From Schmidtea nova (taxonomy: Eukaryota), in NCBI GenBank assembly GCA_044892505.1, contig CM097883.1, positions 283,030,001 to 283,094,000 of the forward strand: 64,000 nt of DNA. Reading direction: 5' to 3'. The notes beneath the pieces are model-generated. The model was not told the DNA's origin, did not search any database, and was given only the letters and a program-made list of their open reading frames with translations. Positions 13,195 to 55,220 of the stretch are shown in pieces; within the stretch, counting starts at the first letter, position 1, and each line of letters begins with the position of its first letter. A program made the position numbers and the translations under genes.

Positions 13195-16100
13195 CTCACT
13201 GAGAACAGGTAAGATTGACCTTATGGTATTCCCAATATCTCTCAAGTTTATATTTGCTAGTGGTCTGTCATGTGCATAGTTTTTGATGAAAGCACAAACA
13301 AATATGTTACAAATAAGACCTGAACCACGAACATCATGTGGACAGTTGCCAGTTACCACAGCACGATATAAAGAGCCTCGAATTTCAAACAGATGAGTAG
13401 TTATCATCAATTAATAATGTTGTTGGATTAAGATAATAATGCTCATCTGTGTTGTAGTCAATGACGAATAAAATTTCACGGGATTTAACGGGGGCCACAA
13501 TAGTAAATATGACTTGTGCCTTGGCAAGGTAATCAAAGTTTAGAAAATCACTCAAATATTGCGTGCAACCCTCAATGATAGCATTGCACATTGTGACGTT
13601 TAATAACATAAAGCTTTCTGATAAGTTTAAGTTTGTGTAGAAGTCTGTTATTGTTTTATCAGAGATTTTACAATTTATTAAGTTGAAGCCCTGACAAATC
13701 TCATTTGTTTGTTTGAGTTTAATAGATTTTAATGAGTTTAATACATCTTCATTCAAGATAATTTTACCAAAGATTAATTTTTCAAGCAAGGCCATAAAAA
13801 CTGAAGCAAGAAAGGTTGTATCCTCAGAATGAAAACAAGTGTGGCCGATATTATAATTAGGTTTAAATTTTACATTTTTACAGAGAAAAAATCTGTTTAA
13901 GTAGTCAGTGAGATTCTCACCAATACCTGATAGTCTTTCATTGATTATTCTACTTTGAAAATCAAACATGTAGCTGGCTTCATCAATGATGGAGAAAAGA
14001 AACAAGCACGAGTTCACACCATTAGGAATGACACTAATGATATGTTGAATACCAGTAAACTGTTTAAATGTCACATTTTCTCTTACAAACTCATCATTTT
14101 GTGATATTAACTGCATTGTCATTTCAGGTGTCAAAACGGAAATCTCACTTGAATTTTTAAACCAAACTTTAATAAGATACGATATACATGAATCTTGCTT
14201 ATATAAATATATCTGGTTTCCTTTGTTGGTGAAATTTGATAAATATTTAGGCTTAATAGGTTTGGAATCATGAAAAAGTAAACCACCACCAGATGTTTCT
14301 GGAATTTTTATTGATTGTTTCATTTGAAATTGATAAAGTTCTATCCTAATTTTTTCGATAAAGTTGTCAGGAAAGCATTTCCATTTCTTGCATATCATCA
14401 TGGCGTAGGCGCAGATGTAAGCCCCGCAATCGTAGTTGTTGTTTTGGTATTCAAAGTTATTATGAGGGTGGAAAGTTATTGAAGTTTTGAGATCAAATAA
14501 TCGATTAAGCGCCATATTGATTTTAAGGGCATTTGTTTTGTTTGTAAAGCTGTGCCGGTTCTGATAAATTGGATCGACAAATTACGACATCAGAGTGCAC
14601 TTACAATACACAAACAGGATCCAATGGGATTTATTTATGTTTATTGGACATAGTATAACTTGAGCTTTAAGAACATTTTCTGGAATTGGAAATATTTCTT
14701 CATCAAGAGTAGAGCACAAAATGCTCACAATAAAGCATTTAATAGGCGCATATTCTGGATTAGTGATGTGGCTCTCAAAATAATAATCAATATCATCATC
14801 AGTAAACCATATCTTTGTATCACGTATTACAGTTATATTATTTATTGTGCTTTCTGCATCAGTCTCTTTAGAGATTGGAGCAGATGTTGGGATTGATGCA
14901 GGCACGCGCCTTCATTTAGATTTGGATGTTGTTTTCTTGCTCTTGGTAGCTGGTTTAGCAAGGCAATTTTTCCAACTGAGCCGGGTTTGCTTCTGTATTA
15001 GTTGGTTCAATTTCATCTATATCTGTTGAAAGAATATTTTGAAAATATTGCTGTTTGTTTACTGGTGCTTAACTGGTCTGAGCATCAGCGGTGGTATAGG
15101 CTGATTCTTCGACATGAGTGTTGACAGTTTCACCAAGAATCTCCGGAATATCTGAGTCAGTTTCATTTATTTTCTCTTCAGCTGTGGTCTTGTTTATAAA
15201 TAATTCTAGAGTGCCAATTATTTGAGTGATGTATTTGCTCATTTCCATTGTACAAATCTTACGACAATGTTGTTTCTTATCTAATGACAAAATACAATAG
15301 CCACTTTCCCTATTTTCTTCAATATCGCTTGACTGAGATGTAAATTCATTTATGTTAATACTCAGTTTTTCAAGAGCTTTTAATTGCTCAGCCTTTTCAG
15401 GAAATAATTTCTCTATAACTGCTAGAAAGTTGTTGATTTCAACGATTGTTTTTGAAGGGATAATATTGTGTATTTTGTCTATCTCTCGTGATAATTTCAA
15501 CTGCTGAAGTTTTAAAAGTCGTTCTTGACAACTAGAAACATAGTATGAAGAGTCAGGAATCATAGCAACCATTTCTGGTCCCCATGTTTCAATATCGTCA
15601 ACATTCAATTATATACGAGTTTCTATGTTTACAATTGAATACATTAACAAGCAGTTACGGATATAGTTTTGCACATATTACTCATATGTCCCGTTTGATG
15701 TGTGTTTAAGATTGCCTTTTAATTTTAAGTCGTTAAGATAATATATTATATCAACCAGTTTCTGATTAGACTTTGGTTGATTCAGAATTGATCTGAATAC
15801 AACGTTATTGGCTGACATTTCAAGGAAGTTCAACAGGCCTAAGTTAAACATTATGTCGGATGCACCATCCTCTTCCAAGATAGCAGAATCATGAATTTTA
15901 TTGTTTATAATAAATTTACCCCCCCTCAAATGAGATTTGTTCAGGGAAGACCTTATGCAATTTTAAATCAATTATTAATTTAATAAGTAATTCAGGATTT
16001 TTTTCTATGTTTTTAGTAAAACATAGCATCTTTATTTCAGGAAATGAGTTAAATAAGTTTTTGATTTTTGAACAGGAAAGTTCTGAACTTGTTGGATTTG

Positions 16101-17100
16101 GATTAATACCATTAGATTCAGAGCCACTGAAAAGATCTAACATGAGAAAATCACCATCGGAAAACTTTATCTGAGATTTTATTAAGAAATCAGGAAGTTC
16201 TTTCCTCTGTTTCATGCTATTTAAAATGTTATTTATTTGAGAACCCTGGACTTTCACATTTGTGATGACAACAGTTTCAGCATGTTTATCTGATAAAACC
16301 CACAAGAAATTTTTAATTATCGACGAAGCAGGAACGAATGAAGTTTTATTATTGGACGACTTAACAATATTCGATCCAATAATAACAGTTTTGAACTTTG
16401 AATTATTATTTTTATTACCAACAGTCACTTTATTTATTTGAGTGAAATTTAAATTAACACATATATTCTGATTTCGATAGAAAAAGTGGTCAAAATATAA
16501 TATATTTAAGGGGTTATCTTTTCTTGAAATACTAAATAAATCATTATTAATATTATTATATTTAGTTTTAGATTCTCTTAATTTTAAAAGTTGAGAATAT
16601 TTAGGGTATATTTGAAACAATTTGTGTTTCTCTTTTTTAGTTAGTATTCTAACAGATCTTTCCAATTTCGATTTAATTTTATAAGATTTTAAAACCTTGT
16701 CATTATTAGTAAAATTTTCACCTTTTAAAATGCCTTTATTTAATAAAGCAATATCACTTTCATTAGAATAATTATTGGTAGAATTATCCAAGTCAATTAC
16801 ATTCACTTTAGTTGCATTACTTAGTTTATCTAATGATAACATATTAACTTTTCTAATGTTGTTATCAATTATAATTTCAAGATTATTAATTTTAGAAAAA
16901 CTATTATAATTATCCTGAAAAGTATAAGCATTTTCATTTTTATAGCCATCTTTATTTTTTACATTACTGCTTATATCTAAATTACTTTGATCTCGAACAT
17001 TACTTTTATCATTAAAATCATTTTCAATATCATAATCAAAACTGCAAGCATTACCAAAATATTTGTTACTCAAAGTTTAAATTTATTAACAAATAAATCA
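13195..17100 (-). mobile_element. Lineage-C non-LTR retrotransposon, broken copy (ORF1 + Ulp1-like domains; RT and RLE missing)
   Basis: 13195-13800 near-identical to 63360-63990; ORF1 pieces 14912-17073, ORF2 pieces 13171-14905 with HW/DP/QxxxxDCG protease motifs; 5' side joins tRNA-array spacer at ~17235. Confidence 0.9.
14847..14914 (-). promoter_or_regulatory. Putative UGA readthrough signal, lineage C (AAA TGA AGG CGC + 59-nt stem-loop)
   Basis: In-frame TGA at 14912-14914; arms GTGC-CTGCATCA and TGATGCAG-AAA-GCAC. Function inferred. Confidence 0.65.
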
Positions 17101-17343
17101 AACTTACATAAAATATTTTGAAATCCAAAGAAGAAAGATGGCCAATATCCATTTTTAAAATAATTAAAAGCCAATCGAAAATATAAAATTTGAAACTACT
17201 GATAAAATCAAGTAGTATATGATTGAAAATAATTGATGATGATTTATTGTCGAAATGATCTAGAAAAGTTGGGTTTTGAAATGAATTGGTTCGTAAAACT
17301 AAAAATAGCAAAATTGAAAATTGTTGAAAAATCCAAAAAATTA

Positions 17344-17398: not shown

Positions 17399-17732
17399 AT
17401 TAGACTTTTATTATTATAACAAATTTGATTTCAACAAAACACAAATGTTTTAAACGGAAAATCTATTCTACATGGAATAGTCCATAAGTGGTTTTTACAA
17501 CTTTCTGTGGATTTTATCTGAATATTTCTTCGGATATCTTCATCCGGCTCTGCGAATTTTCTTAGACTTGAATTTCAGGTCATCGGTCGGTTTTTCGCAG
17601 TCTCTCTCTCTACACTCTAACTCTCTTCAAAACGATTCATATAATTGCACAAACTAATTTATTTATTTACAAAAGTAATTTGGTATTTATAAACAAAGTT
17701 TAATTTTAATTACAAAAATTTATTTACATTAA

Positions 17733-20700: not shown

Positions 20701-22277
20701 GTCCAACACTTTCTCTCAACTCATTGATTTTAAGTCGTATCCTATTGCAGTAGCGTTCTGTAATCGGATTTATTTCAAGAGTTACTGGACTTAAAATGTA
20801 GTGTTGATCTGCTTCATAATCAATTACCATAAGTAAATCATGAACTGTTGGAGGGGAAATTATTGTAAAATTTACGTCTGCTTTCATCATAGACTCAATA
20901 TTCAAAAAGTCCTTCAAATATTGAGTGCAATCATCAAAGATTGCACTGCGTAACGTTTTGTTAAACAGGATATATTTGTCAGATAATTTTAGATTAGTAA
21001 AATATTCATCTATGATGTTATCAGTTATTTTACCATTGATTAGACTGAGGCCAGGAGAAATTTCGCTGCACGCTTTGCTTTTAATTTTACTAAGCACCAC
21101 AAACACTTTATCATGATCGAAAATTCTCTGAAAAACTAATCTTTCAACTAGCACAATGAACATTGATGCAAAGTATTGATTATCATAAGAGAAGAATGTT
21201 GTATGCGAAATTTCATGATTAGCCTCAAATTCAATTCTTCGATTAAGAAAAAATTGATTGAGATAATCAGTAATTTTTCAGCCAATTTCCCTTAGCCTCT
21301 CATCTATATTTCGATAATTAAAATCAAAAATATAGCTTGTGTTTAATTTAGTAGAGTAGATAGAAAGGCACCAGTCATTGAATTTAGGGATAATACTGAT
21401 GACATGTTCAATTCCTTTAAATTGTTTGAAAGTTACGTAGTCTTTTATATAGTTGTCATTTTGCGCAATAAGATTATTTGTTAATTCCACACTCAGAACT
21501 GCTATTTGAGTATTAGTCTCATAATATTTCGTAATTAAGGATGATATGCATGGATTTTCGTTCATTAAGATTTTGGCAACTTTTACAGAGTTATTTATTG
21601 CTTTCTTTTTAGCAATTGCTTTCTTGATATTAATTGCTGTTACATCCATTGGCCGATTAGCACCCCCTAACAATTTCGGCGTCTGCTTTTGGTATTGATG
21701 AACATCTTCTCTAATTTCTTCGATGAACCCATCTGGAAAGTAGTTCCACTCTCTGCTAATAATCACTGCATAAGCGCAAGTGAAAGGCCCAGTCGAAGCT
21801 GTTGTCTTGGTATTTAAGATAGTTGTGGGGATTTGGTAATATTCTCGCGTTTAAGTTGAAGTCCATATTGATTGCAATGTTCAATTTTCGAGTCATTTGT
21901 TTATTGATCAGCTTGTTGCGAATATTAAAAATTGGATCAATGAAGTAGGAAGACAGAGATTTCCTACAATAGACAAAAAGGATCCAATGTGAGTTGTTGA
22001 TGTTGATGGGACAGAAGATAACTTAGGCTCTTGTAAGTGATGGGGGTATTGGAACAATCTCTTCTTGAATGTTTGAACAGAGAATGCTCACTAGATAACA
22101 TTTGATATGTGCATGGATTGGATTTTCAATGTGGTTCTCCAGATACCGGTCAATATCAAAATCGGCAAACCACATTTCAGAATCGCGATCTTTATGCAAT
22201 AAACTATTAATAATTATTGTGCTCTCTGCATCAGTCTCATTTGGAGAAACGACTGAGGCTTGAGCTGATGCAGGCAC
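17733..22277 (-). pseudogene. Lineage-B ORF2 (Ulp1-like x3, RT, CCHC knuckle, RLE), multiply frameshifted
   Basis: WRPIALL, QGVKQGCP, YAGD (degraded YADD), CRRC..H..C, ERVDL..DVKCP, ends KIWYHHTRGFIPDLA* at 17733. Confidence 0.9.
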
Positions 22278-22286
22278 ACATCCTCA
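22219..22286 (-). promoter_or_regulatory. Putative UGA readthrough signal, lineage B (AAA TGA GGA TGT + 59-nt stem-loop)
   Basis: In-frame TGA at 22284-22286; arms GTGC-CTGCATCAG and CTGATGCAG-AGA-GCAC. Function inferred. Confidence 0.65.
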
Positions 22287-25531: not shown

Positions 25532-25583
25532 TTTAAAATTTTATTAATACAACAAGTTTTTTTATCTTTCTTTTTGAGAGGGC

Positions 25584-28500: not shown

Positions 28501-29975
28501 TTATTGTTGTAGTCGATGACAAGCAGAATATGTTGAGCTTGTGGTGGAGCAATAATTGAAAAAACAACTTGTGCTTTAGTTAGAAGATCAATATTTAAAA
28601 AATCATTCAAATATTGAGTGCAGTCATCTAATATTGCAGTGCAAATTGTATTATTTAAAAATATGAAATTTTCACACAAATTTAAATTATTAAAATAATT
28701 TGTTAAAATATTATTTGTTATTTTAAAATTTAAAAAGTTTAGATTTATTGCCACTTCACCAAGTATTTTTGAATGAATAATGCCAAGTTTTTCAATTACT
28801 CTGTCTCTATTGCAAATAGATCCTGAAATATAGTGCTCCAAAAACAGTATGAAGGTCGTGGCATGTTCTATTGGATCATCAGAAAACATTGAAGTTCGAA
28901 AAAGAGTGTGACGATGTTGTTGAAATTTTATTGAATTTTCAAAGATAAATTTATTTAAATAATCAGTTATATTTTCTCCAATTCCTAACAATCTTTCAGT
29001 TATATTCGTAGAACGAACGTCAAAAATATAACTGCAGCCAAGACTAATAGAACAAAGAAAAAGACGCCAATAATTATCATTTGGAATAATACTAATGATA
29101 ATCCGAATATCCTTAAATTGTTTAAAAGTCACATTCTCTCTTATATAAATATTATTTTGATTAATCAAATTAATTGTTAGTTCAGGAGAAAATACAAGCA
29201 CGCTTGGATCGTTTTGAAACCATTTATTTAAGAGTGTAGAAACACAAGCTTTCTCGTTTGTAAGTTTTATTGGTTTAGCAATGTTGTTATTTTGCTGAGT
29301 ATTCTTTTTAAACGCCTTTGCTTTTTTTAAATTAATTTTATTAAGGAAATGATTCTTTGGCAATCCACCACCCGATAATTTGACATTGTGATTTGATTGA
29401 CCTTTTTTAAAATCGTGGATCTGTTCCCTAATATTCAAGATAAAATCATCAGGTAAACATTTCCATTCACCACTAACAATCATTGCGTATGCACAAATAA
29501 AAGGACCACAATCAAAATCATTATTTTGATATTTGAGATTTTTAATTGGATTGTCAGTTATTTGGTTGTGACGTTTAAATTTATTATTTAATACCGAGTT
29601 TATTTTTAGGGCACTAATTTTGCTGTCTAATCTATTCCTATAATTAAAGATTGGATCAATAAAATAAGAAGTCAAAGAAGTCTTGCAATAAACAAACAAG
29701 ACCCAATGGCAATTGTTAATATTGAGAGGACACAATATGACTTGGGCTTCAAAAATTGTTTGAGGTATCGGAAAAATAACATCGGTCATATTTGAGCATA
29801 AAATACTTACAACAAAACATTTAATGAAAGCAAAACTAGGGTTCCTGATGTGACGTTCAAAGAAATAGTCAATGTCATCATCAGTGAACCAACATTTTAA
29901 ATCATGAATGTCAAGAGTGCATTCTGCATCAGTCTCGTCAGACAATGCAGTACATGTAGAGGCTGATGCAGGCAC
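25584..29975 (-). pseudogene. Lineage-A ORF2, copy 1 (two internal stops, truncated RLE)
   Basis: ORFs 27489-29975, 25971-27308, 25584-25901 are one frame broken by stops. Confidence 0.92.
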
Positions 29976-37991: not shown

Positions 37992-40310
37992 TTTGGTGAT
38001 CGCCTTTGATAATTTAACGTCTTTTCTAGTAGTCATCTTTCTACTGTCTGTATTTTTAATTGGCACACAAGATGTATTCTCCGCATCAATATCAGTTTCT
38101 AAAAGAGTCGGTTTAATGATACCTGTATTATTTGAATCTACGACATTGGAGCTAACGCTAACATCTTTACAAGTGTCTTTAGAAATTTCAATAACATCAA
38201 CAGATTCACTACTAGTCAGAAGATTTTCAAGAGAGTCAACAAGATCAAAGATAACCGAAGTCATTTCAGTATTACAAATTTTACGACATTTAATTGGAAC
38301 CTGAAAATCATCTATGTTCTTGTTCAAAAATCTTTTCTTGTCTCTTATTATAAAATATATCAGTCGTTTAGCCTTGATAATGTTAATGTCATCACACTCA
38401 GAACGGAATTCATTAATATGTGAAAAGACAGAGTCTATTGCATTCAGTTGATCAATTTTTAGGGGAAACAAGTTATTAATTAAATTTAAAAATTTATTAA
38501 TTTTTTTAATTGTATCTTTTGAAATTATATTTTTTAATTTATCAATCTCGCAGGTCAGCATCCATCGTTTGAATTTTATTAATTTTTCCTGACAACTAAT
38601 TCTAAAGTATGAAGTCGAAGGTATTTTTTCAACAAATTCAGAGCCCCATATTTCAAAAGAGTCAATAGTCAAGGAACCACATTTAACACAGTCTATAACC
38701 GAATGAATAAGTAAGGAATTACGGAAATAATTGAAAACATAATCATCGTAATTAATATTGCTTGAAAATTTAATATCACCCTTTAAGTTTAGATAATTAA
38801 TATAGTAGATTAATTCCACAATCTTAATGGAAGAAGCAGGTGATGATAAAAGTTGATCTAAATGCTTATCAGTTCTAGACATTTCAAACAAATCAAATAA
38901 CCCAATATTAAACATAATATCAGAGGCATGGCTAGAGTCAGCTTCTTTTATTGTAGGTTTACAATCAACAGTAAATTTACCATCTAAAAAAGAAATGTCC
39001 TTTGGAAAATCCTTATTTAATTTTAAACAATTAATTAAATCAATTAATTTTTCAGGATTCTTTGAAATATTTTCAATAAAAACCATTTCTTTTAGTTCAG
39101 GGTAATCAAGATAGAGTTTATTTATTTGTGATCTTGAAAGATTATTTGAAGTTAATTCAACACCGGCATTATGACAATTATCAGAAGTGGAAAAGTCTCT
39201 CATTATAAAGTCACCGTCAATATACCTTATTTCTGATTTAACAAGAAAGTCTGGCAATTGTTTTTGTAATTTTAATAAATCTAAGGCTTTATTAATAACG
39301 CTTCCCTTTTGGATTTCATTTTTATTAGAGACGGTTTCTGCCAATTTGCTTGAGAGAGCAAATAAAAATTTCCTTATCGCTAAAGGTGCAGAAATCATTT
39401 TAGATGAAAGATTAATTGAATTTATAATATCGCAAATAAATGTTTTCTTACTACTTACAGAAATTGAATTTTGAGATATTTCAGTTTTAGTTTCAACTAC
39501 TTTATGTTTTTGATTTTTAATAAGTTTAATTGAAACGCAGAAATTGCAATTTCGATAAAAGAAATGATCAACATCCTTAATACTCATGTTAAATTTTGAA
39601 TTATTAATAAGTGAGATTTCCTTGTCAATAAGATCAAATTTTAAAGTAGAATTTTTCATTTTAATTAAATCTTTAAGGCGTGGAAAATTATTCAATAATG
39701 TACGGCGCTCATTTTTTGTTAAAAGTCTAGGTAAGAAATTAAATTGAAAGTTATCAACTTTAACATTACGGGTACCCTTATTAACTGTGACTTTAAGAGA
39801 TTTAACAGGTTTATTGAGAGGAGTCTGAAAATCATGGCTAATAACAGGGGCATCAGGAACATTAACAACTGCTTCAACAAAAGAATTATCAGAATTGATA
39901 CATAAATCATTTCTTGAAATAGGAACAAAAAGATTGTTATTTTTAGAAAAATCATTAATTGATAAATTATTACCAGAATCATAATTATTTAAAGAAACAT
40001 TAGAAACTTTAGTATTATCAAAACCATTAATGAAATCAGAGAAAATATTCAAATTACTCAAAATCAAATCAATTTTACCTTGAATTGAAATAAAATTCTT
40101 TTCCATCTGATCCAATCTCTTTGAAAGTCCTTCGTCAGAAGCAGGTTTTGAAAATTCAGTTGCAGTAATTGACTCCAAAATCGATTGATTTGAAATAATT
40201 TGATTTTTCAGAATATCAATTAATCCACGTTTTTGAAAATCTTGATTAATAATTACATGATTGCGCAATAGATCCTCATTAATTGGTTGCGTAATTTCAG
40301 TGTGCTTCAT
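37989..40310 (-). CDS. Lineage-A ORF1, copy 2 (773 aa)
   Basis: Open frame, translation appears identical to copy 1. Confidence 0.85.
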   Translation of the reverse strand: MKHTEITQPINEDLLRNHVIINQDFQKRGLIDILKNQIISNQSILESITATEFSKPASDEGLSKRLDQMEKNFISIQGKIDLILSNLNIFSDFINGFDNTKVSNVSLNNYDSGNNLSINDFSKNNNLFVPISRNDLCINSDNSFVEAVVNVPDAPVISHDFQTPLNKPVKSLKVTVNKGTRNVKVDNFQFNFLPRLLTKNERRTLLNNFPRLKDLIKMKNSTLKFDLIDKEISLINNSKFNMSIKDVDHFFYRNCNFCVSIKLIKNQKHKVVETKTEISQNSISVSSKKTFICDIINSINLSSKMISAPLAIRKFLFALSSKLAETVSNKNEIQKGSVINKALDLLKLQKQLPDFLVKSEIRYIDGDFIMRDFSTSDNCHNAGVELTSNNLSRSQINKLYLDYPELKEMVFIENISKNPEKLIDLINCLKLNKDFPKDISFLDGKFTVDCKPTIKEADSSHASDIMFNIGLFDLFEMSRTDKHLDQLLSSPASSIKIVELIYYINYLNLKGDIKFSSNINYDDYVFNYFRNSLLIHSVIDCVKCGSLTIDSFEIWGSEFVEKIPSTSYFRISCQEKLIKFKRWMLTCEIDKLKNIISKDTIKKINKFLNLINNLFPLKIDQLNAIDSVFSHINEFRSECDDINIIKAKRLIYFIIRDKKRFLNKNIDDFQVPIKCRKICNTEMTSVIFDLVDSLENLLTSSESVDVIEISKDTCKDVSVSSNVVDSNNTGIIKPTLLETDIDAENTSCVPIKNTDSRKMTTRKDVKLSKAITK

Positions 40311-40385
40311 TGGGTTTTGAAATGAATTGGTTTGTAAAACTAAAAATAGCAAAATTGAAAATTGTTGAAAAAATCCAAAAAATTA

Positions 40386-40458
40386 TGCCCCGAGTGAGGA
40401 TCGAACTCACGACCTTCAGATTATGAGACTGACGCGCTACCTACTGCGCTATCGAGGC
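40386..40458 (-). tRNA. tRNA-Met: tRNA-Met (CAT)
   Basis: Consensus array copy. Confidence 0.97.
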
Positions 40459-40628
40459 GTTAAGTAGAGTTACACTTTTCTTTTCGTATTCAATATATCT
40501 TATTCAAGTCAAAATCATGATGATGATTTATTGTCGAAATGATCTAGAAAAGTTGGGTTTTGAAATGAATTGGTTTGTAAAACTAAAAATAGCAAAATTG
40601 AAAATTGTTGAAAAAATCCAAAAAATTA

Positions 40629-40701
40629 TGCCCCGAGTGAGGATCGAACTCACGACCTTCAGATTATGAGACTGACGCGCTACCTACTGCGCTATCGAGG
40701 C
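40629..40701 (-). tRNA. tRNA-Met: tRNA-Met (CAT)
   Basis: Consensus array copy. Confidence 0.97.
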
Positions 40702-40871
40702 GTTAAGTAGAGTTACACTTTTCTTTTCGTATTCAATATATCTTATTCAAGTCAAAATCATGATGATAATTTATTGTCGAAATGATCTAGAAAAGTTGGG
40801 TTTTGAAATGAATTGGTTTGTAAAACTAAAAATAGCAAAATTGAAAATTGTTGAAAAAATCCAAAAAATTA

Positions 40872-40944
40872 TCCCCCGAGTGAGGATCGAACTCACGACC
40901 TTCAGATTATGAGACTGACGCGCTACCTATTGCGCTATCGAGGC
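40872..40944 (-). tRNA. tRNA-Met: tRNA-Met (CAT), C72G + G15A variant (probably defective)
   Basis: G1:G72 mismatch and altered D-loop. Confidence 0.8.
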
Positions 40945-41114
40945 GTTAAGTAGAGTTACACTTTTCTTTTCGTATTCAATATATCTTATTCAAGTCAAAA
41001 TCATGATGATGATTTATTGTCGAAATGATCTAGAAAAGTTGAGTTTTGAAATGAATTGGTTTGTAAAACTAAAAATAGCAAAATTGAAAATTGTTGAAAA
41101 AATCCAAAAACTTA

Positions 41115-41187
41115 TGCCCCGAGTGAGGATCGAACTCACGACCTTCAGATTATGAGACTGACGCGCTACCTACTGCGCTATCGAGGC
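41115..41187 (-). tRNA. tRNA-Met: tRNA-Met (CAT)
   Basis: Consensus array copy. Confidence 0.97.
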
Positions 41188-41357
41188 GTTAAGTAGAGTT
41201 ACACTTTTCTTTTCGTATTCAATATATCTTATTCAAGTCAAAATCATGATGATGATTTATTGTCGAAATGATCTAGAAAAGTTGAGTTTTGAAATGAATT
41301 GGTTTGTAAAACTAAAAATAGCAAAATTGAAAATTGTTGAAAAAATCCAAAAACTTA

Positions 41358-41414
41358 TGCCCCGAGTGAGGATCGAACTCACGACCTTCAGATTATGAGA
41401 CTGACGCGCTACCT
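41358..41414 (-). pseudogene. tRNA-Met: tRNA-Met nt 17-73, interrupted by lineage-A copy 3
   Basis: Same junction as other A copies. Confidence 0.93.
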
Positions 41415-41912: not shown

Positions 41913-44900
41913 TTAAACACTCGGAAGAATTCCTGTTGCATGAAAGTGCCATGTCTTTGCAGAATGTGAGATATTACTCAAAGCACATGCTTTCAAAAGA
42001 CCATCTATTTTTCCGACAGGAACTCCCATTTTAGTAAGCAAATCATACGTGGCAGGTGGAACAGATCCTATTGAACTGATAATACAAGTGTATAGTTCTA
42101 CAGAAAAATTTGGTTTCGCCACTTGTATTTTCTTTTTCAAGCTTTCGTACTTGGTCAAATTATCTTTATCTACATTTTCAAAATTAACCAAAGAGTCAAA
42201 AGGACATTTTATATCAACCATAAGAATGATCTTTTTATCATTGTTTGTTATTATTAAATCAACTCGTTCATTAGAATCAGATACATAAGAACAAGTGTGA
42301 TCTACAACTACAATCAGTGAAGGATCTTTCAAATGATTTACAATCTGTTGAAGGCATTCATTGTGTCGCCTAAGTGCTAAGGTTTGATGAACTTTACACA
42401 TTTGCAGAACATGAGGTAAAGTTTCCTCTGCGCTATGACAACGTCTACATAACCTATCCTCAAGCTTCCTTTAAGACTTTGAAAAATTGGCCAACGTGTT
42501 TGTTCGAGCACGATGAATGAATCTCCAGGAACTTTCACGCAATTCCCCTCTAAATATTGCTTTATTAATTTTAGGCGATAAACTAAATGTTATAGAGCCA
42601 CTAGTATTACTATTTTTCCATTTAGTAAAGTAAGAGTCAGAAAGAGCAAGGTGAAAGATTTTAGATATTGAGCGTCTGTCTAAGCAGGTTAATATGATTG
42701 TTCCTTTTTCAATTGTTGTCAGACGAATAATAGGCTCATTCTTCAATACTTCAAACGATATTGAAATGTTGTGCATTTTTTCAAAAAATTGAATGGCTGT
42801 TCTTGGCCGATAGAATCTTGTTTTCTTACCATAATGTAGTCTAACATTATCAGCTCCATTAAGCCAGTTAAAGCTATCCTGGAGTGATGGGTTATTCTTT
42901 CCAAGTCGAGGTCCAGTTACGTATTTTAAGGAATCCAAATTAATCTTTTTGGTAAAAGGACAGTTTGATGTAAAAAGGCGGAAGAAATGACTTAATGTTT
43001 GTGTATGATATTCATCGAGAAGATCAGTACAAGATGCTCCTCCATTTTCAATTGAGTTATAAAAATAACTGATTTCAGAATGACCAGACAAACTCATCAT
43101 CTTTCTCAAATGACTACGAAGTTTTGTTGTACTGTTTCCAACATTAGCTGAAAGAGCACTAATTTTAATTTCTCTTGTTCTAAAAGGAAATATTAGACGC
43201 GAGTGTAGAAAAACCTTGTAAGCTTTCAGCTTTTGCCAACCATACAAGTCTGAGTCGGCAAGCTTTTTTGCATCACTGACTACCTTATCAAGTATTTCAT
43301 AAGGACTTTGGTCAGCATCTTCACCTACTGGTACTCCAAGATATTGATAAAATTCTTTAGTTAATAATTTCTTGATGTTTATTTTATCAATAGTAATTTC
43401 ACTCACCGTGTCCACACTCGGCAGTTGAATGTAGGCACATTTTTCAGGTCGATATTCAAAGCCTATTTCAGATGCAGTGTCGTACGCAATATTTATAATC
43501 GTTTGCAAGTCCTTAGCATTATTAGCAATAAGAGCAATATCGTCAGCATATGCAAGAACTTGAATTGAAGATTCACCAATTTTAAAAGGACTGACATTTG
43601 AAAGACTAACCGCTTGAAGAACAGGATTGATTGCTATAGCAAACAAGACCATTGAAAGAGGACATCCTTGTTTGACTCCTTGTTTTATTGCAATGTTTGG
43701 TGTTACAATCGGACCACAAGTATAGAAAGAGCTAGTATCAGTGTACAAAAGTTTTAAAATCCTAGTAAATTTCTCACTCATTCCAATATGACGCAAAATT
43801 GCCCACATGTAATCATGAGGTACACTACCAAAGGCGTCCTTAATATCAAGAAATGCAATAGTTAAAGGTTTATTTTTACTGTATTTCGAATGTTCAAGAC
43901 AAGATGAAAGTATGGAATTGTGTTCAACACATCCATCATGAACAGAACCTCCTTTTTGTCCAACATGAAGAACATTATTTAGATTTACCCACACTGTCAA
44001 ACGTCTAGCTAAAATTGATGAGAATATTTTGTAGACAACAGATAAAAGAGCAATCGGACGCCAAGAAGAGATTAAAGTATATTTGTCACCCTTGTCAGGT
44101 TTAGGAATCATTAACGTTTTGAAGGATTTCCAAACGTCTGGAATTGTATTTTCCCTAATGATTTTATTAAATAAAAAGGTCAACAATTTACCCTCTGGAT
44201 CAAGAATTTCAATGTCCTTATATTCAATTCCATCAAGCCCAGGAGAAGTATTATCAGCGTTTTTCAACTCATAGAGTACCTCCTTTTCATTGATCAAATT
44301 CAAATTTAGAATATTTAAAGATTTAATTGCAAATTTAAAAATATTGTCATAATTCTTTAAAGTTGGATCTCTATGACTAAAATTATCTATGTGATCTTTA
44401 ATTGTTGGCCTATCCTTTATGTCGTCATTCATAAATATTTTATTTATTGTCTTTTTCATATTTTTATTAAAAGATGACGTCAAATTAATTTTAGATGGCT
44501 TATCGTTATTTGTTTTGTTTCCCAAGTATGGCCTACGTAATTTAGTTAAATTGGCTACTTCTTTACTTTTTGCAATAGTACTAATAATAAATTCCGCTAT
44601 TTCGTTAACATTTGAATTTTGTAGATTTAACAAATGCTCATTTATTAAAATTATACGTTGATTTATTTTAAGTTTAACATGTTGTTTTTCAATTTGTAAA
44701 GTCGTTAATGGAATTTCCATACATTCTTTTACAGGTGGTAAGAGAGAATTCACAACATTACCAATGTCATGTAAATTAATGTTTTCAAGAGACAAGTCTA
44801 GAGCGTAGTGCTTGATGAAAGCACAGATGAGAACCCTGCTTACAAGACCAGAACCTCGAACATCATGTGGACAATTACCAGCTTTACTACAAAGACCAGG

Positions 44901-46475
44901 AGATTCTCTTATTTCATTGATTTTAGTCAATAAGGCTTTAGCAGTAGATAAATAAGGAGCATTATTCTGTAAAGTTGTTGGGTTTAATAAATAATGTTCA
45001 TTATTGTTGTAGTCGATGACAAGCAGAATATGTTGAGCTTGTGGTGGAGCAATAATTGAAAAAACAACTTGTGCTTTAGTTAGAAGATCAATATTTAAAA
45101 AATCATTCAAATATTGAGTGCAGTCATCTAATATTGCAGTGCAAATTGTATTATTTAAAAATATGAAATTTTCACACAAATTTAAATTATTAAAATAATT
45201 TGTTAAAATATTATTTGTTATTTTAAAATTTAAAAAGTTTAGATTTATTGCCACTTGACCAAGTATTTTTGAATGAATAATGCCAAGTTTTTCAATTACT
45301 CTGTCTCTATTGCAAATAGATCCTGAAATATACTGCTCCAAAAACAGTATGAAGGTCGTAGCATGTTCTATTGGATCATCAGAAAACATTGAAGTTCGAA
45401 AAAGAGTGTGACGATGTTGTTGAAATTTTATTGAATTATCAAAGATAAATTTATTTAAATAATCAGTTATATTTTCTCCAATTCCTAACAATCTTTCAGT
45501 TATATTCGTAGAACGAACGTCAAAAACATAACTACAGCCAAGACTAATAGAACAAAGAAAAAGACACCAATAATTATCATTTGGAATAATACTAATGATA
45601 ATGCGAATATCCTTAAATTGTTTAAAAGTCACATTCTCTTTTATATAAATATTATTTTGATTAATCAAATTAATTGTTAGTTCAGGAGAAAACACAAGCA
45701 CACTTGGATCATTTTGAAACCACTTATTTAAGAGTGTAGAAACACAAGCTTTCTCGTTGTTAAGTTTTATTGGTTTAGCAATGTTGTTATTTTGCTGAGT
45801 ATTCTTTTTAAACGTCATTGCTTTTTTTAAATTAATTTTATTAAGGAAATGATTCTTTGGCAATCCATCACCCGATAATTTGACACTGTGATTTGATTGA
45901 CCTTTTTTAAAATCGTGGATCTGTTCCCTAATATTCAATATAAAATTATCAGGTAAACATTCCCATTCACCACTAACAATCATTGCGTATGCACAAATAA
46001 AAGGACCACAATCAAAATCATTATTTTGATATTTGAGATTTTTAATTGGATTGTCAGTTATTTGGTTGTGACGTTTAAATTTATTATTTAATACCGAGTT
46101 TATTTTTAGGGCACTAATTTTGCTGTCTAATCTATTCCTATAATTAAAGATTGGATCAATAAAATAAGAAGTCAAAGAAGTCTTGCAATAAACAAACAAG
46201 ACCCAATGGCAATTGTTAATATTGAGAGGACACAATATGACTTGGGCTTCAAAAATTGTTTGAGGTATCGGAAAAATAACATCGGTCATATTTGAGCATA
46301 AAATACTTACAACAAAACATTTAATGAAAGCAAAACTAGGGTTCCTGATGTGACGTTCAAAGAAATAGTCAATGTCATCATCAGTGAACCAACATTTTAA
46401 ATCATGAATGTCAAGAGTGCATTCTGCATCAGTCTCGTCAGACAATGCAGTACATGTAGAGGCTGATGCAGGCAC
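41913..46475 (-). CDS. Lineage-A ORF2, copy 3 (in-frame TAA at 42471-42473)
   Basis: As copy 2. Confidence 0.9.
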
Positions 46476-46484
46476 ATCCCATCA
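46417..46484 (-). promoter_or_regulatory. Putative UGA readthrough signal, lineage A copy 3
   Basis: As copy 2. Confidence 0.65.
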
Positions 46485-48803
46485 TTTGGTGATCGCCTTT
46501 GATAATTTAACGTCTTTTCTAGTAGTCATCTTTCTACTGTCTGTATTTTTAATTGGCACACAAGATGTATTCTCCGCATCAATATCAGTTTCTAAAAGAG
46601 TCGGTTTAATGATACCTGTATTATTTGAATCTACGACATTGGAGCTAACGCTAACATCTTTACAAGTGTCTTTAGAAATTTCAATAACATCAACAGATTC
46701 ACTACTAGTCAGAAGATTTTCAAGAGAGTCAACAAGATCAAAGATAACCGAAGTCATTTCAGTATTACAAATTTTACGACATTTAATTGGAACCTGAAAA
46801 TCATCTATGTTCTTGTTCAAAAATCTTTTCTTGTCTCTTATTATAAAATATATCAGTCGTTTAGCCTTGATAATGTTAATGTCATCACACTCAGAACGGA
46901 ATTCATTAATATGTGAAAAGACAGAGTCTATTGCATTCAGTTGATCAATTTTTAGGGGAAACAAGTTATTAATTAAATTTAAAAATTTATTAATTTTTTT
47001 AATTGTATCTTTTGAAATTATATTTTTTAATTTATCAATCTCGCAGGTCAGCATCCATCGTTTGAATTTTATTAATTTTTCCTGACAACTAATTCTAAAG
47101 TATGAAGTCGAAGGTATTTTTTCAACAAATTCAGAGCCCCATATTTCAAAAGAGTCAATAGTCAAGGAACCACATTTAACACAGTCTATAACCGAATGAA
47201 TAAGTAAGGAATTACGGAAATAATTGAAAACATAATCATCGTAATTAATATTGCTTGAAAATTTAATATCACCCTTTAAGTTTAGATAATTAATATAGTA
47301 GATTAATTCCACAATCTTAATGGAAGAAGCAGGTGATGATAAAAGTTGATCTAAATGCTTATCAGTTCTAGACATTTCAAACAAATCAAATAACCCAATA
47401 TTAAACATAATATCAGAGGCATGGCTAGAGTCAGCTTCTTTTATTGTAGGTTTACAATCAACAGTAAATTTACCATCTAAAAAAGAAATGTCCTTTGGAA
47501 AATCCTTATTTAATTTTAAACAATTAATTAAATCAATTAATTTTTCAGGATTCTTTGAAATATTTTCAATAAAAACCATTTCTTTTAGTTCAGGGTAATC
47601 AAGATAGAGTTTATTTATTTGTGATCTTGAAAGATTATTTGAAGTTAATTCAACACCGGCATTATGACAATTATCAGAAGTGGAAAAGTCTCTCATTATA
47701 AAGTCACCGTCAATATACCTTATTTCTGATTTAACAAGAAAGTCTGGCAATTGTTTTTGTAATTTTAATAAATCTAAGGCTTTATTAATAACGCTTCCCT
47801 TTTGGATTTCATTTTTATTAGAGACGGTTTCTGCCAATTTGCTTGAGAGAGCAAATAAAAATTTCCTTATCGCTAAAGGTGCAGAAATCATTTTAGATGA
47901 AAGATTAATTGAATTTATAATATCGCAAATAAATGTTTTCTTACTACTTACAGAAATTGAATTTTGAGATATTTCAGTTTTAGTTTCAACTACTTTATGT
48001 TTTTGATTTTTAATAAGTTTAATTGAAACGCAGAAATTGCAATTTCGATAAAAGAAATGATCAACATCCTTAATACTCATGTTAAATTTTGAATTATTAA
48101 TAAGTGAGATTTCCTTGTCAATAAGATCAAATTTTAAAGTAGAATTTTTCATTTTAATTAAATCTTTAAGGCGTGGAAAATTATTCAATAATGTACGGCG
48201 CTCATTTTTTGTTAAAAGTCTAGGTAAGAAATTAAATTGAAAGTTATCAACTTTAACATTACGGGTACCCTTATTAACTGTGACTTTAAGAGATTTAACA
48301 GGTTTATTGAGAGGAGTCTGAAAATCATGGCTAATAACAGGGGCATCAGGAACATTAACAACTGCTTCAACAAAAGAATTATCAGAATTGATACATAAAT
48401 CATTTCTTGAAATAGGAACAAAAAGATTGTTATTTTTAGAAAAATCATTAATTGATAAATTATTACCAGAATCATAATTATTTAAAGAAACATTAGAAAC
48501 TTTAGTATTATCAAAACCATTAATGAAATCAGAGAAAATATTCAAATTACTCAAAATCAAATCAATTTTACCTTGAATTGAAATAAAATTCTTTTCCATC
48601 TGATCCAATCTCTTTGAAAGTCCTTCGTCAGAAGCAGGTTTTGAAAATTCAGTTGCAGTAATTGACTCCAAAATCGATTGATTTGAAATAATTTGATTTT
48701 TCAGAATATCAATTAATCCACGTTTTTGAAAATCTTGATTAATAATTACATGATTGCGCAATAGATCCTCATTAATTGGTTGCGTAATTTCAGTGTGCTT
48801 CAT
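46482..48803 (-). CDS. Lineage-A ORF1, copy 3 (773 aa)
   Basis: As copy 2. Confidence 0.85.
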   Translation of the reverse strand: MKHTEITQPINEDLLRNHVIINQDFQKRGLIDILKNQIISNQSILESITATEFSKPASDEGLSKRLDQMEKNFISIQGKIDLILSNLNIFSDFINGFDNTKVSNVSLNNYDSGNNLSINDFSKNNNLFVPISRNDLCINSDNSFVEAVVNVPDAPVISHDFQTPLNKPVKSLKVTVNKGTRNVKVDNFQFNFLPRLLTKNERRTLLNNFPRLKDLIKMKNSTLKFDLIDKEISLINNSKFNMSIKDVDHFFYRNCNFCVSIKLIKNQKHKVVETKTEISQNSISVSSKKTFICDIINSINLSSKMISAPLAIRKFLFALSSKLAETVSNKNEIQKGSVINKALDLLKLQKQLPDFLVKSEIRYIDGDFIMRDFSTSDNCHNAGVELTSNNLSRSQINKLYLDYPELKEMVFIENISKNPEKLIDLINCLKLNKDFPKDISFLDGKFTVDCKPTIKEADSSHASDIMFNIGLFDLFEMSRTDKHLDQLLSSPASSIKIVELIYYINYLNLKGDIKFSSNINYDDYVFNYFRNSLLIHSVIDCVKCGSLTIDSFEIWGSEFVEKIPSTSYFRISCQEKLIKFKRWMLTCEIDKLKNIISKDTIKKINKFLNLINNLFPLKIDQLNAIDSVFSHINEFRSECDDINIIKAKRLIYFIIRDKKRFLNKNIDDFQVPIKCRKICNTEMTSVIFDLVDSLENLLTSSESVDVIEISKDTCKDVSVSSNVVDSNNTGIIKPTLLETDIDAENTSCVPIKNTDSRKMTTRKDVKLSKAITK

Positions 48804-49437: not shown

Positions 49438-49607
49438 GTTAAGTAGAGTTACACTTTTCTTTTCGTATTCAATATATCTTATTCAAGTCAAAATCATGAT
49501 GATGATTTATTGTCGAAATGATCTAGAAAAGTTGGGTTTTAAAATGAATTGGTTTGTAAAACTAAAAATAGCAAAATTGAAAATTGTTGAAAGAATCCAA
49601 AAAATTA

Positions 49608-49680
49608 TGCCCCGAGTGAGGATCGAACTCACGACCTTCAGATTATGAGACTGACGCGCTACCTACTGCGCTATCGAGGC
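49608..49680 (-). tRNA. tRNA-Met: tRNA-Met (CAT)
   Basis: Consensus array copy. Confidence 0.97.
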
Positions 49681-49850
49681 GTTAAGTAGAGTTACACTTT
49701 TCTTTTCATATTCAATATATCTTATTCAAGTCAAAATCATGATGATGATTTATTGTCGAAATGATCTAGAAAAGTTGGGTTTTGAAATGAATTGGTTTGT
49801 AAAACTAAAAATAGCAAAATTGAAAATTGTTGAAAAAATCCAAAAAATTA

Positions 49851-49923
49851 TGCCTCGAGTGAGGATCGAACTCACGACCTTCAGATTATGAGACTGACGC
49901 GCTACCTACTGCGCTATCGAGGC
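49851..49923 (-). tRNA. tRNA-Met: tRNA-Met (CAT), G69A variant
   Basis: Change converts U4:G69 wobble to U:A pair; structure retained. Confidence 0.93.
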
Positions 49924-50093
49924 GTTAAGTAGAGTTACACTTTTCTTTTCGTATTCAATATATCTTATTCAAGTCAAAATCATGATGATGATTTATTGTC
50001 GAAATGATCTAGAAAAGTTGAGTTTTGAAATGAATTGGTTTGTAAAACTAAAAATAGCAAAATTGAAAATTGTTGAAAAAATCCAAAAACTTA

Positions 50094-50150
50094 TGCCCCG
50101 AGTGAGGATCGAACTCACGACCTTCAGATTATGAGACTGACGCGCTACCT
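50094..50150 (-). pseudogene. tRNA-Met: tRNA-Met nt 17-73, interrupted by lineage-A copy 4
   Basis: Same junction as other A copies. Confidence 0.93.
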
Positions 50151-53600: not shown

Positions 53601-55211
53601 ATGTGGACAATTACCAGCTTTACTACAAAGACCAGGAGATTCTCTTATTTCATTGATTTTAGTCAATAAGGCTTTAGCAGTAGATAAATAAGGAGCATTA
53701 TTCTGTAAAGTTGTTGGGTTTAATAAATAATGTTCATTATTGTTGTAGTCGATGACAAGCAGAATATGTTGAGCTTGTGGTGGAGCAATAATTGAAAAAA
53801 CAACTTGTGCTTTAGTTAGAAGATCAATATTTAAAAAATCATTCAAATATTGAGTGCAGTCATCTAATATTGCAGTGCAAATTGTATTATTTAAAAATAT
53901 GAAATTTTCACACAAATTTAAATTATTAAAATAATTTGTTAAAATATTATTTGTTATTTTAAAATTTAAAAAGTTTAGATTTATTGCCACTTGACCAAGT
54001 ATTTTTGAATGAATAATGCCAAGTTTTTCAATTACTCTGTCTCTATTGCAAATAGATCCTGAAATATACTGCTCCAAAAACAGTATGAAGGTCGTAGCAT
54101 GTTCTATTGGATCATCAGAAAACATTGAAGTTCGAAAAAGAGTGTGACGATGTTGTTGAAATTTTATTGAATTATCAAAGATAAATTTATTTAAATAATC
54201 AGTTATATTTTCTCCAATTCCTAACAATCTTTCAGTTATATTCGTAGAACGAACGTCAAAAACATAACTACAGCCAAGACTAATAGAACAAAGAAAAAGA
54301 CACCAATAATTATCATTTGGAATAATACTAATGATAATGCGAATATCCTTAAATTGTTTAAAAGTCACATTCTCTTTTATATAAATATTATTTTGATTAA
54401 TCAAATTAATTGTTAGTTCAGGAGAAAACACAAGCACACTTGGATCATTTTGAAACCACTTATTTAAGAGTGTAGAAACACAAGCTTTCTCGTTGTTAAG
54501 TTTTATTGGTTTAGCAATGTTGTTATTTTGCTGAGTATTCTTTTTAAACGTCATTGCTTTTTTTAAATTAATTTTATTAAGGAAATGATTCTTTGGCAAT
54601 CCATCACCCGATAATTTGACACTGTGATTTGATTGACCTTTTTTAAAATCGTGGATCTGTTCCCTAATATTCAATATAAAATTATCAGGTAAACATTCCC
54701 ATTCACCACTAACAATCATTGCGTATGCACAAATAAAAGGACCACAATCAAAATCATTATTTTGATATTTGAGATTTTTAATTGGATTGTCAGTTATTTG
54801 GTTGTGACGTTTAAATTTATTATTTAATACCGAGTTTATTTTTAGGGCACTAATTTTGCTGTCTAATCTATTCCTATAATTAAAGATTGGATCAATAAAA
54901 TAAGAAGTCAAAGAAGTCTTGCAATAAACAAACAAGACCCAATGGCAATTGTTAATATTGAGAGGACACAATATGACTTGGGCTTCAAAAATTGTTTGAG
55001 GTATCGGAAAAATAACATCGGTCATATTTGAGCATAAAATACTTACAACAAAACATTTAATGAAAGCAAAACTAGGGTTCCTGATGTGACGTTCAAAGAA
55101 ATAGTCAATGTCATCATCAGTGAACCAACATTTTAAATCATGAATGTCAAGAGTGCATTCTGCATCAGTCTCGTCAGACAATGCAGTACATGTAGAGGCT
55201 GATGCAGGCAC
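50649..55211 (-). CDS. Lineage-A ORF2, copy 4 (in-frame TAA at 51207-51209)
   Basis: As copy 2. Confidence 0.9.
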
Positions 55212-55220
55212 ATCCCATCA
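55153..55220 (-). promoter_or_regulatory. Putative UGA readthrough signal, lineage A copy 4
   Basis: As copy 2. Confidence 0.65.

What the first reader, a model, noticed from the sequence alone, without database searches (positions are those of the whole stretch)
14847..55220. Conserved in-frame UGA + 59-nt stem-loop between ORF1 and ORF2: candidate programmed stop-codon readthrough in a non-LTR retrotransposon
Seen: in all three lineages ORF1 and ORF2 share a frame and are separated by exactly one stop in the same context: A AAA TGA TGG GAT GTG CCT GCA TCA (29982, 37989, 46482, 55218); B AAA TGA GGA TGT GTG CCT GCA TCA (22284); C AAA TGA AGG CGC GTG CCT GCA TCA (14912). Starting 6 nt after the stop, GTGC-CTGCATCA(G) can pair with (C)TGATGCAG-nnn-GCAC; the hairpin is 59 nt in all three, both arms are conserved even at synonymous positions, while the ~30-nt loop and its encoded residues are unrelated (ASTCTALSDE / AQASVVSPNE / IPTSAPISKE). 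ORF2 has no conserved AUG upstream of the protease catalytic His. Known: UGA/UAG readthrough stimulated by a 3' structure a few nt downstream occurs in gammaretroviruses, alphaviruses and some LTR elements; non-LTR elements more usually use reinitiation or frameshifting. Inference: a ~2,300-aa ORF1-protease-RT-RLE fusion is made at low frequency. Alternative: GUG reinitiation aided by the hairpin. I am not aware of this signal being described for this group.
Basis: partly seen in the sequence, partly recalled or inferred. Interest (0 to 1): 0.92.

Follow-up and report, generated by a model that had tools for sequence, protein, structure and literature searches.

The report
Leaky stop signal in LINE retrotransposon
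A family of jumping genes that insert into tRNA genes keeps one stop codon, followed by a strongly conserved RNA hairpin, between its two protein-coding regions; it most likely lets ribosomes read through that stop now and then to make its copying enzyme, a trick known from retroviruses that we did not find described for this kind of element.

Summary
Observation confirmed, on the minus strand. Six junctions read AAA-TGA, 6 nt, then a 59-nt hairpin (4 bp, 3-nt bulge, 9 bp). The elements are R5/LIN-like non-LTR retrotransposons (ORF1; ORF2 = Ulp1 protease, RT, RLE) inserted in tRNA-Met arrays. The genome holds about 682 hairpin copies; only 4 singletons lack TGA, none has TGG, and no fused ~2,300-aa frame was seen. 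Across three lineages at 42-46% protein identity the arms keep 6 of 7 four-fold sites versus 7 of 66 elsewhere. 8 of 12 outside relatives (proteins only) can encode the same stem at their first residue (null 0 of 1,012), with an implied compensatory change. No DNA-level covariation was found, and there are no RNA or protein data. Best reading: hairpin-stimulated UGA readthrough giving an ORF1-protease-RT-endonuclease polyprotein, possibly self-cleaved at a conserved di-Gly (about 0.68). Main rival: non-AUG reinitiation at GUG (about 0.17). Corrections: the four A copies are near-identical and share a second, premature TAA; B and C are decayed. Not found described for non-LTR elements in ten searches, but the original R5 paper was not available.

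The parts
46482..46484 (-). In-frame TGA between ORF1 and ORF2, lineage A (same at 55218-55220, 37989-37991, 29982-29984); preceded by AAA
46476..46481 (-). 6-nt spacer (TGG GAT); genome-wide pattern xGx xxY, never a stop in the loci examined
46417..46475 (-). 59-nt hairpin: GTGC/GCAC lower stem, 3-nt 3' bulge, 9-bp upper stem, variable loop (copies 55153-55211, 37924-37982, 29917-29975)
22219..22286 (-). Lineage B TGA + spacer + hairpin (decayed element, about 17399-24800)
14847..14914 (-). Lineage C TGA + spacer + hairpin (decayed copy, one pair lost)
46485..48803 (-). ORF1 of A (773 codons from an ATG at the 5' junction; true 5' end uncertain); basic Lys/Arg-rich C-terminus; no Pfam, database or atlas match
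41913..46481 (-). ORF2 of A, interrupted in the window copies by TAA at 42471-42473; 1,522 codons in intact copies elsewhere
45972..46262 (-). Ulp1/SENP-like (Peptidase C48) domain, with His92, Asp109 and Cys158 invariant among 15 aligned relatives
29364..29375 (-). Conserved Gly-Gly(-Gly) 46 residues after the catalytic Cys, candidate self-cleavage site (Gly-Asp-Gly in the other three A copies, 45864-45875 etc.)
   Evidence: cleavage is inference
43329..44108 (-). Reverse transcriptase domain (PF00078, ORF2 residues 792-1051)
41916..42470 (-). CCHC knuckle and restriction-like endonuclease motifs (CRRC..H..C, RHN, RVD..DIK), downstream of the premature TAA
   Evidence: motif names from own knowledge; only a weak HSDR_N_2 Pfam hit, E 0.028
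40310..41414 (-). 243-bp tandem tRNA-Met(CAT) array, target of the elements (also 24811-25531, 32303-32921, 48803-50150, 58175-59994); A's 3' end joins the tRNA at about nt 17
59995..64000 (-). 3' part of a C-lineage element with open ORF2 to the RLE; LIN25-like 3' end joined to tRNA-Met nt 3; its TGA+hairpin junction lies just outside the window (L061)
   Evidence: PMC4640811 S6 Fig

Best explanation
The element is an R5/LIN-type (NeSL group), tRNA-gene-targeting non-LTR retrotransposon that expresses ORF2 by programmed UGA readthrough. Most ribosomes stop at AAA-UGA and release the ~760-aa ORF1 protein. With UGA in the A site, the hairpin sits at the mRNA entry channel: the 4-bp lower stem starts at +10 and the 9-bp upper stem at +14 counted from the U. 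It delays or disfavours termination, so a near-cognate tRNA occasionally decodes UGA and a ~2,300-aa ORF1-Ulp1-RT-RLE polyprotein is made, setting a high ORF1:ORF2 ratio as gag:pol in gammaretroviruses. The Ulp1-like protease directly after the stop may then cut at the conserved di-Gly just behind it and free the RT-endonuclease part. Shown: sequence, frame, conservation, selection on nucleotides, folding potential, absence of TGG or fused copies. Inferred: that the hairpin forms, that readthrough occurs and at what level, which residue is inserted, and self-cleavage.
For: (1) Stop identity: TGA in 89 of 89 fetched loci (loci overlap, and about half were picked with a TGA pattern, but the protein-picked ones agree). 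Among ~682 hairpin copies only 4 singletons differ (AGA x2, TTA, TAA) and TGB = 0. The two intact ORF2 ends read use TAA, and two-fold purine sites are G in all three lineages in only 2 of 45 cases, so UGA is held against the AT bias, which reinitiation would not need. [quoted passage not shown] (3) Arms are under nucleotide selection: 6 of 7 vs 7 of 66 four-fold sites, and they are the two longest three-way identical runs in 3 kb; synonymous-null z -2.5 to -4.5. (4) 8 of 12 outside clade proteins (32-49% identity over the aligned part) can encode the two-part stem anchored at residue 1, vs 0 of 1,012 internal V/M windows. Ser..Asp becomes Pro..Gly in one subclade (P0005, P0156-158), as a U-A to C-G swap requires; Ser/Cys and Asp/Glu swaps fall on bulged bases. 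(5) The conserved WFxD motif and the triad lie upstream of any conserved Met; the GUG is paired in the stem, with a pyrimidine at -3 in 14 of 15 variants and C at +4 in 15 of 15. (6) More distant relatives carry the Ulp1 domain inside one long ORF (P0014 2,421 aa, P0019, P0026, P0028), so a long N-terminal extension is tolerated.
Against: No RNA holder could be examined and there are no ribosome or peptide data. No pair with a change on both sides in 13 genome variants; covariation is no better than shuffles. The compensatory changes are deduced from amino acids, without DNA. +4 is A, G or U, never the C of the classic leaky UGA-C. The 6-nt spacer is shorter than the 8 nt or more of MoMLV, VEEV, SINV and CTFV. 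4 of 12 outside proteins fail the stem test (P0003, P0004, P0043, P0159), and a looser core-only test was weak (1-27 of 40 nulls as good). The GTG is invariant and is where gene callers start the outside proteins. The invariant A-TGA also spells an AUGA stop-start overlap, although its -1 frame closes after 15-24 codons. Tca2, with a similar junction, did not read through in a yeast reporter (PMC2194720). ORF1 shows no similarity to the N-terminus of the fused relative P0014. The structure model leaves the di-Gly region disordered (pLDDT < 50), giving no support for self-cleavage.
Confidence: 0.68

Rival explanations
1. Termination-reinitiation (or internal initiation) at the GUG 6 nt after the stop; the hairpin holds post-termination ribosomes, and ORF2 is made as a separate ~1,520-aa protein starting Met-Pro-Ala-Ser.
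For: GTG is invariant in 89 of 89 loci; 8 outside proteins are called from the equivalent codon. SART1 uses coupling with a downstream structure and L1 uses unconventional reinitiation (PMC5972666). P0043 could start with a true ATG (not checkable).
Against: The GUG is buried in the stem, in a poor context. The rest of the stem is equally invariant, so GUG needs no separate explanation. Reinitiation does not need UGA rather than UAA, an in-frame stop or a stop-free spacer. A 'Met' from a prokaryote-type gene caller is expected for GTG, so it is not evidence (own knowledge).
Confidence: 0.17
2. The hairpin is a non-translational cis signal (RNP assembly, RT binding, RNA processing or an internal promoter), and ORF2 is expressed by some other route.
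For: The stem is conserved in sequence rather than by covariation, as protein-binding sites often are; the Tca2 junction had a minor promoter.
Against: It does not explain the fixed 6-nt distance to an in-frame UGA, the conserved -1 A, or the lack of an AUG for any downstream-initiated RNA.
Confidence: 0.07
3. Spliced-leader trans-splicing supplies an AUG at the in-frame GAG|ACT acceptor in the hairpin's 3' arm.
For: GAG at codon 16 in 15 of 15 genome variants, after a pyrimidine-rich loop; flatworm leaders carry an AUG (partly recalled; the abstract start of PMC9851317 is cut at that point).
Against: GAG is a weak acceptor (own knowledge) and is explained by stem extension in most variants. 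The equivalent residue is I, L, V or A in several outside relatives, so no AG is possible there.
Confidence: 0.04
4. The stop is removed at the RNA level (A-to-I editing to UGG, or cis-splicing), or is decoded as selenocysteine.
For: UGA to UGI is one edit away; SEPN1's selenocysteine element has a 6-nt spacer.
Against: Edited or spliced RNA would be copied back into DNA: TGG/TGC/TGT copies 0 of ~682, and no open frame above 1,543 codons in 385 protein-search rows. The stop lies outside the duplex. No SECIS match at E<=10 over one whole A copy, 41400-48900, and the site is an unconserved linker, not a catalytic position.
Confidence: 0.04

Closest known systems
R5/LIN lineage of the NeSL clade (planarian LIN15_SM, LIN25_SM; PMC4640811)
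   Same: RLE-type RT; sequence-specific insertion inside tRNA genes of tandem arrays; the 3' end of the element at 59995 resembles LIN25_SM by eye and joins near the tRNA 5' end like it; A and B join near the D-loop like LIN15_SM.
   Different: Targets here are tRNA-Met and tRNA-Ala (L107) rather than Arg, Glu or 28S. In the passages, section 10 and S6 Fig read, the paper mentions no ORF structure, protease or stop signal for LIN ('ORF' and 'stop' occur 0 times in its main text).
NeSL-1 and Utopia-1_TSP (nematodes)
   Same: Ulp1-like cysteine protease upstream of RT and RLE (PMC4640811).
   Different: [quoted passage not shown]
Gammaretroviral gag-UAG-pro-pol readthrough (MoMLV)
   Same: In-frame single stop, 3' structure after a short spacer, protease directly after the stop, then RT and the integration enzyme.
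   Different: UGA not UAG, 6-nt not 8-nt spacer, bulged hairpin not pseudoknot, cysteine not aspartic protease, non-LTR element.
Type II UGA + stem-loop readthrough (alphaviruses, tobra/furoviruses, Drosophila kelch, SEPN1 element; PMC3159437)
   Same: UGA, -1 A, +5 G, G ending the third codon, 12-16-bp stem with unconserved loop, two peaks of synonymous conservation.
   Different: No C at +4; compact 59-nt element; no DNA-level covariation shown yet.
SART1 and L1 ORF2 reinitiation; Tca2 gag-UGA-pol
   Same: Bicistronic retroelement RNA; a structure 3' of the ORF1 stop (SART1, Tca2).
   Different: SART1 has an overlapping stop-start and L1 a 63-nt spacer before an AUG; here there is no in-frame AUG. 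Tca2 is an LTR element whose local signal did not direct readthrough in yeast.

Membership tests
RLE-type (R2 group) non-LTR retrotransposon | Non-LTR RT domain followed by a CCHC knuckle and restriction-like endonuclease | tested here: met
   PF00078 E 7e-30; CCHC and RLE motifs in the C-terminus (motif names from own knowledge); named database neighbours are R2-type retrotransposon proteins
NeSL clade | Ulp1-like cysteine protease upstream of RT (in NeSL and some Utopia) | tested here: met
   PF02902 E 1e-8; His, Asp, Cys invariant; model matches SENP5, NEDP1, Ulp1
R5/LIN lineage | RT phylogeny groups with R5 and LIN sequences | not testable with these tools
   No R5 or LIN sequence turned up in the searches; the tree shows only that the window elements form a supported clade (FastTree 1.0) with 11 unnamed relatives, apart from the named nematode and arthropod proteins
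R5/LIN lineage | Target-specific insertion in tRNA or 28S genes, with LIN-like AT-rich 3' ends | tested here: met
   Three lineages join tRNA-Met at nt ~3, ~17, ~20; by-eye match to LIN25/LIN15 ends in S6 Fig of PMC4640811
Structure-stimulated stop-codon readthrough site | Single in-frame stop conserved between two ORFs under selection | tested here: met
   (this genome only; no DNA for outside relatives)
Structure-stimulated stop-codon readthrough site | 3' stem 6-12 nt after the stop with synonymous-site conservation in both arms | tested here: met
Structure-stimulated stop-codon readthrough site | Compensatory base changes in the stem | tested here: inconclusive
   0 double changes in 13 DNA variants; implied at protein level in outside relatives
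Type II readthrough motif | C at +4 (UGA-CGG or UGA-CUA) | tested here: not met
   +4 is A, G or U in 89 of 89 loci; published exceptions exist
Structure-stimulated stop-codon readthrough site | Fusion product detected and dependent on the stem | not testable with these tools
   needs a reporter, ribosome profiling or mass spectrometry
Selenocysteine recoding | SECIS element in the same RNA | tested here: not met
   no SECIS match at the gathering threshold in the window or at E<=10 over 41400-48900; a divergent SECIS could be missed

The most novel reading that the evidence does not exclude
A whole clade of target-primed (non-LTR) retrotransposons has independently evolved the full gammaretroviral expression plan: hairpin-programmed UGA readthrough into a protease-RT-endonuclease polyprotein, followed by self-cleavage at a SUMO-like di-Gly by a captured Ulp1 protease. 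This would be the first programmed readthrough in a LINE and would give the NeSL-group protease a function.
Probability: 0.35. Interest if true: 0.88.

Novelty: new variant of a known kind. Interest (0 to 1): 0.72.

Why it matters
How bicistronic non-LTR elements translate ORF2 is settled for only a few families, and in the reviews read here it is by reinitiation or 2A skipping. A conserved readthrough cassette would add a further route and show convergence with retroviral gag-pol control. It supplies a compact (68-nt) UGA readthrough signal without the usual +4 C that can be tested directly in reporters, and a testable role (polyprotein processing) for the unexplained Ulp1 protease of NeSL-group elements. 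It also implies that ORF2 of these families is mis-started in automated annotation.

Tried and rejected
No RNA holder listed for the junction: no evidence either way. Laying four runs of unknown kind, contigs only, one study showed other subfamilies aligning mainly over the hairpin, and no interpretable splice joint. The metagenome scan gave 18 distant Ulp1-like loci at 26-35% identity, not examined further, and not the DNA of the close relatives; the viral scan gave 0 of 73 candidates. So no outside DNA and no true covariation test. ORF1: no homologue, no atlas hit, no match to P0014, low-confidence model, pLDDT 48.8, not fold-searched. A 75-nt sliding identity window does not single out the junction (0.60 vs 0.64 at the catalytic Cys): conservation is confined to the arms. 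A core-only protein stem test was weak and was then replaced by the full two-stem test. AUGA stop-start coupling rejected: the -1 frame closes within 15-24 codons in 15 of 15 variants. An alternative genetic code (UGA as sense) rejected as an explanation: internal TGA occurs only at this site and in broken copies, and the second stop in A is a TAA absent from intact copies. Earlier scan findings: none by words or by sequence. Papers on R5 (Burke 2003), NeSL-1, L1 (Alisch 2006) and SART1 (Kojima 2005) were not held. Repbase entries could not be searched.


Full report
OBSERVATION. The six junctions are in the window, on the minus strand (one search found 0 plus-strand and 6 minus-strand matches). 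Each reads AAA TGA, 6 nt, then a 59-nt stretch whose ends pair as GTGC/GCAC (4 bp), a 3-nt bulge on the 3' side and a 9-bp upper stem. In lineage A, ORF1 and ORF2 share a frame with this one TGA between them. Three corrections. The four A copies differ at only 0-43 of 6,300 positions, so the window offers three independent lineages. All four A copies carry a second, premature TAA just before the CCHC/RLE region, so they cannot make the full product. B and C are decayed copies.

WHAT THE ELEMENT IS. ORF2 has an Ulp1-type peptidase (PF02902, E 1e-8) and an RT (PF00078, E 7e-30). The protease model matches SENP5, NEDP1 and Ulp1. The C-terminus shows CCHC and restriction-like endonuclease motifs (motif names from own knowledge). 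ORF1 has no detectable relative. The elements sit in 243-bp tandem arrays of tRNA-Met genes, and three lineages join that tRNA at about nt 3, 17 and 20. The 3' end at 59995 resembles LIN25_SM by eye, and the D-loop junctions resemble LIN15_SM (PMC4640811, S6 Fig passages). That paper (passages and section 10) places planarian LIN families with R5 in the NeSL clade. I file the element as probable R5/LIN and infer a planarian host; RT phylogeny against named R5/LIN sequences could not be run.

GENOME-WIDE. The pattern TGA-N6-GTGCCTGCATCA has 699 matches with a control of 0; the two-arm pattern has 682. With the arms fixed and a 32-nt gap, the codon 6 nt upstream of the hairpin is not TGA in only 4 single copies (AGA twice, TTA, TAA) and is never TGG, TGC or TGT. 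These counts see only families with these exact arms. All 89 fetched loci read xxA-TGA-xGx-xxY-GTG with 10 different spacers; the loci overlap and about half were picked with a TGA pattern, but those picked by protein search (L031-L070, L074, L078-L080, L099-L105) agree. Many copies have intact ORF2 frames of 1,522-1,543 codons, and none of 385 protein-search rows has a longer frame. With ORF1 at 755-773 codons, a fusion would be about 2,300 residues.

SELECTION ON THE RNA. In three lineages at 42-46% protein identity, 6 of 7 four-fold sites in the arm codons are identical against 7 of 66 elsewhere (Fisher p=6e-5), and the arms are the two longest three-way identical runs (14 nt each) in 3 kb. 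The hairpin is the most stable of 2,088 windows in A's coding region and beats synonymous recodings in 13 of 13 variants (z -2.5 to -4.5). Against this, 13 DNA variants show no pair changed on both sides and a covariation score no better than shuffles: the stem is invariant, which shows constraint but not pairing.

OUTSIDE RELATIVES. Searches gave unnamed proteins that form one clade with the window elements (tree of 50 RT domains, none dropped, midpoint-rooted). Only proteins were available. Of 12 clade proteins, 8 can encode the same two-part stem when residue 1 is read as GTG, against 0 of 1,012 internal Val/Met windows; four fail (P0003, P0004, P0043, P0159, the last starting inside the protease). 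The loop keeps its length in four and is 2-5 codons shorter in four. In the shorter-loop subclade Ser4..Asp becomes Pro4..Gly, which is what a U-A to C-G swap requires, and Ser/Cys and Asp/Glu exchanges fall on bulged bases. This is deduction from the genetic code, and gene callers only show the motif where a GTG or ATG exists, which biases the sample. A looser core-only test was weak.

MECHANISM. The region right after the hairpin is translated (conserved WFxD motif, invariant His-Asp-Cys), and no Met is conserved before it, so ORF2 needs readthrough, a non-AUG start or RNA processing. Readthrough fits best. UGA is kept although the two intact ORF2 ends read use UAA and two-fold purine sites are rarely all G (2 of 45). 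The context matches xxA-stop-CGx-xxx-xxG of tobra-like viruses except at +4, and UGA-UGG and a 6-nt spacer have precedents (PMC3159437, passages and Discussion). The upper stem starts at +14, near the edge of the entry channel (PMC13517186, passages); the same review notes that known spacers are 8 nt or more. The GUG is paired and in a poor context. Editing and cis-splicing should leave TGG or fused DNA copies, because these elements copy their own RNA (own knowledge), and none were found. Rfam shows no SECIS. Reinitiation remains the serious rival: SART1 and L1 use it (PMC5972666, passages), and Tca2's similar junction failed a yeast readthrough test (PMC2194720, abstract and passages).

PROTEASE. 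A Gly-Gly lies 44-49 residues after the catalytic Cys in 18 of 25 rows (some redundant; background 10% per 50 residues), and in 11 of the 16 proteins with the DCG motif printed. Ulp1 enzymes cut after di-Gly (own knowledge), so this is a candidate self-cleavage site. It would make the layout ORF1-stop-protease-RT-endonuclease parallel to gag-stop-PR-RT-IN. The model leaves the site disordered, so this is untested inference. More distant relatives carry the protease inside one long ORF, though P0014's N-terminus does not resemble ORF1.

NOVELTY. Ten full-text searches (91 was on trans-splicing) listed no paper describing readthrough in a non-LTR element or this signal; most hits were seen only as listings. 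Passages of PMC5009743, PMC3956500 and PMC5911963 mention in-frame stops for LTR elements (Tj1, Tca2) and an unresolved four-stop spacer in the LINE Zorro3. The R5, NeSL-1, SART1 and L1 primary papers were not held and Repbase was not searchable, so the in-frame stop itself may have been noted before. Of PMC4640811's supplements only term hits were seen, all in S6 Fig.

VERDICT. Real, selected and clade-wide; most likely a hairpin-stimulated UGA readthrough site (0.68), unproven without expression data. New variant of a known kind; interest 0.72.

Noticed in passing
window 59995, 50151/41415/32922/25532, 17399: Three different lineages insert into the same tRNA-Met gene at different positions (about nt 3, 17 and 20), all in the tRNA's orientation; another family (L107) sits in a tRNA-Ala array. 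Neither target is among the LIN targets listed in PMC4640811.
   Followed up: partly
window 29364-29375 and 45864-45875 (-): Conserved Gly-Gly(-Gly) about 46 residues after the protease Cys, a candidate self-cleavage site; three of the four A copies have Gly-Asp-Gly.
   Followed up: partly
ORF2 residues ~245-590 (window ~44700-45750, -): Two further degenerate Ulp1-like repeats lacking the triad follow the active domain, judged by eye from the alignment; P0004 lacks one of them.
   Followed up: no
window 58709-58781 and 59438-59510 (-): Two tRNA-Met array copies have anticodon CAA and are called tRNA-Leu; if expressed they could misread UUG.
   Followed up: no
window 24811-59994: Four near-identical A units of about 8-8.7 kb with the same premature TAA and mostly the same 5' junction: tandem duplication of an already broken insertion together with its tRNA array, not independent insertions. 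57535-58226 duplicates part of ORF1.
   Followed up: partly
window 48803, 40310, 32303: A's ORF1 ATG sits at the junction with the tRNA spacer, with no visible 5' UTR; L107's ORF1 also starts only tens of bases after the array, suggesting co-transcription from the array or 5' truncation.
   Followed up: no
window 3037-3726: 29/59-bp tandem repeat array (about 24 copies) that gives spurious long ORFs.
   Followed up: no
window 8800-13100: Further decayed fragments of the same family (ORF1 and ORF2 pieces at 8838-9981, 11253-11508, 12418-12609); 12215-13084 duplicates 16254-17125.
   Followed up: no
all junctions (e.g. window 46482-46485): The invariant A-TGA forms an AUG in the -1 frame that opens a 15-24-codon mini-ORF across the hairpin; probably a by-product of the -1 A.
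   Followed up: partly
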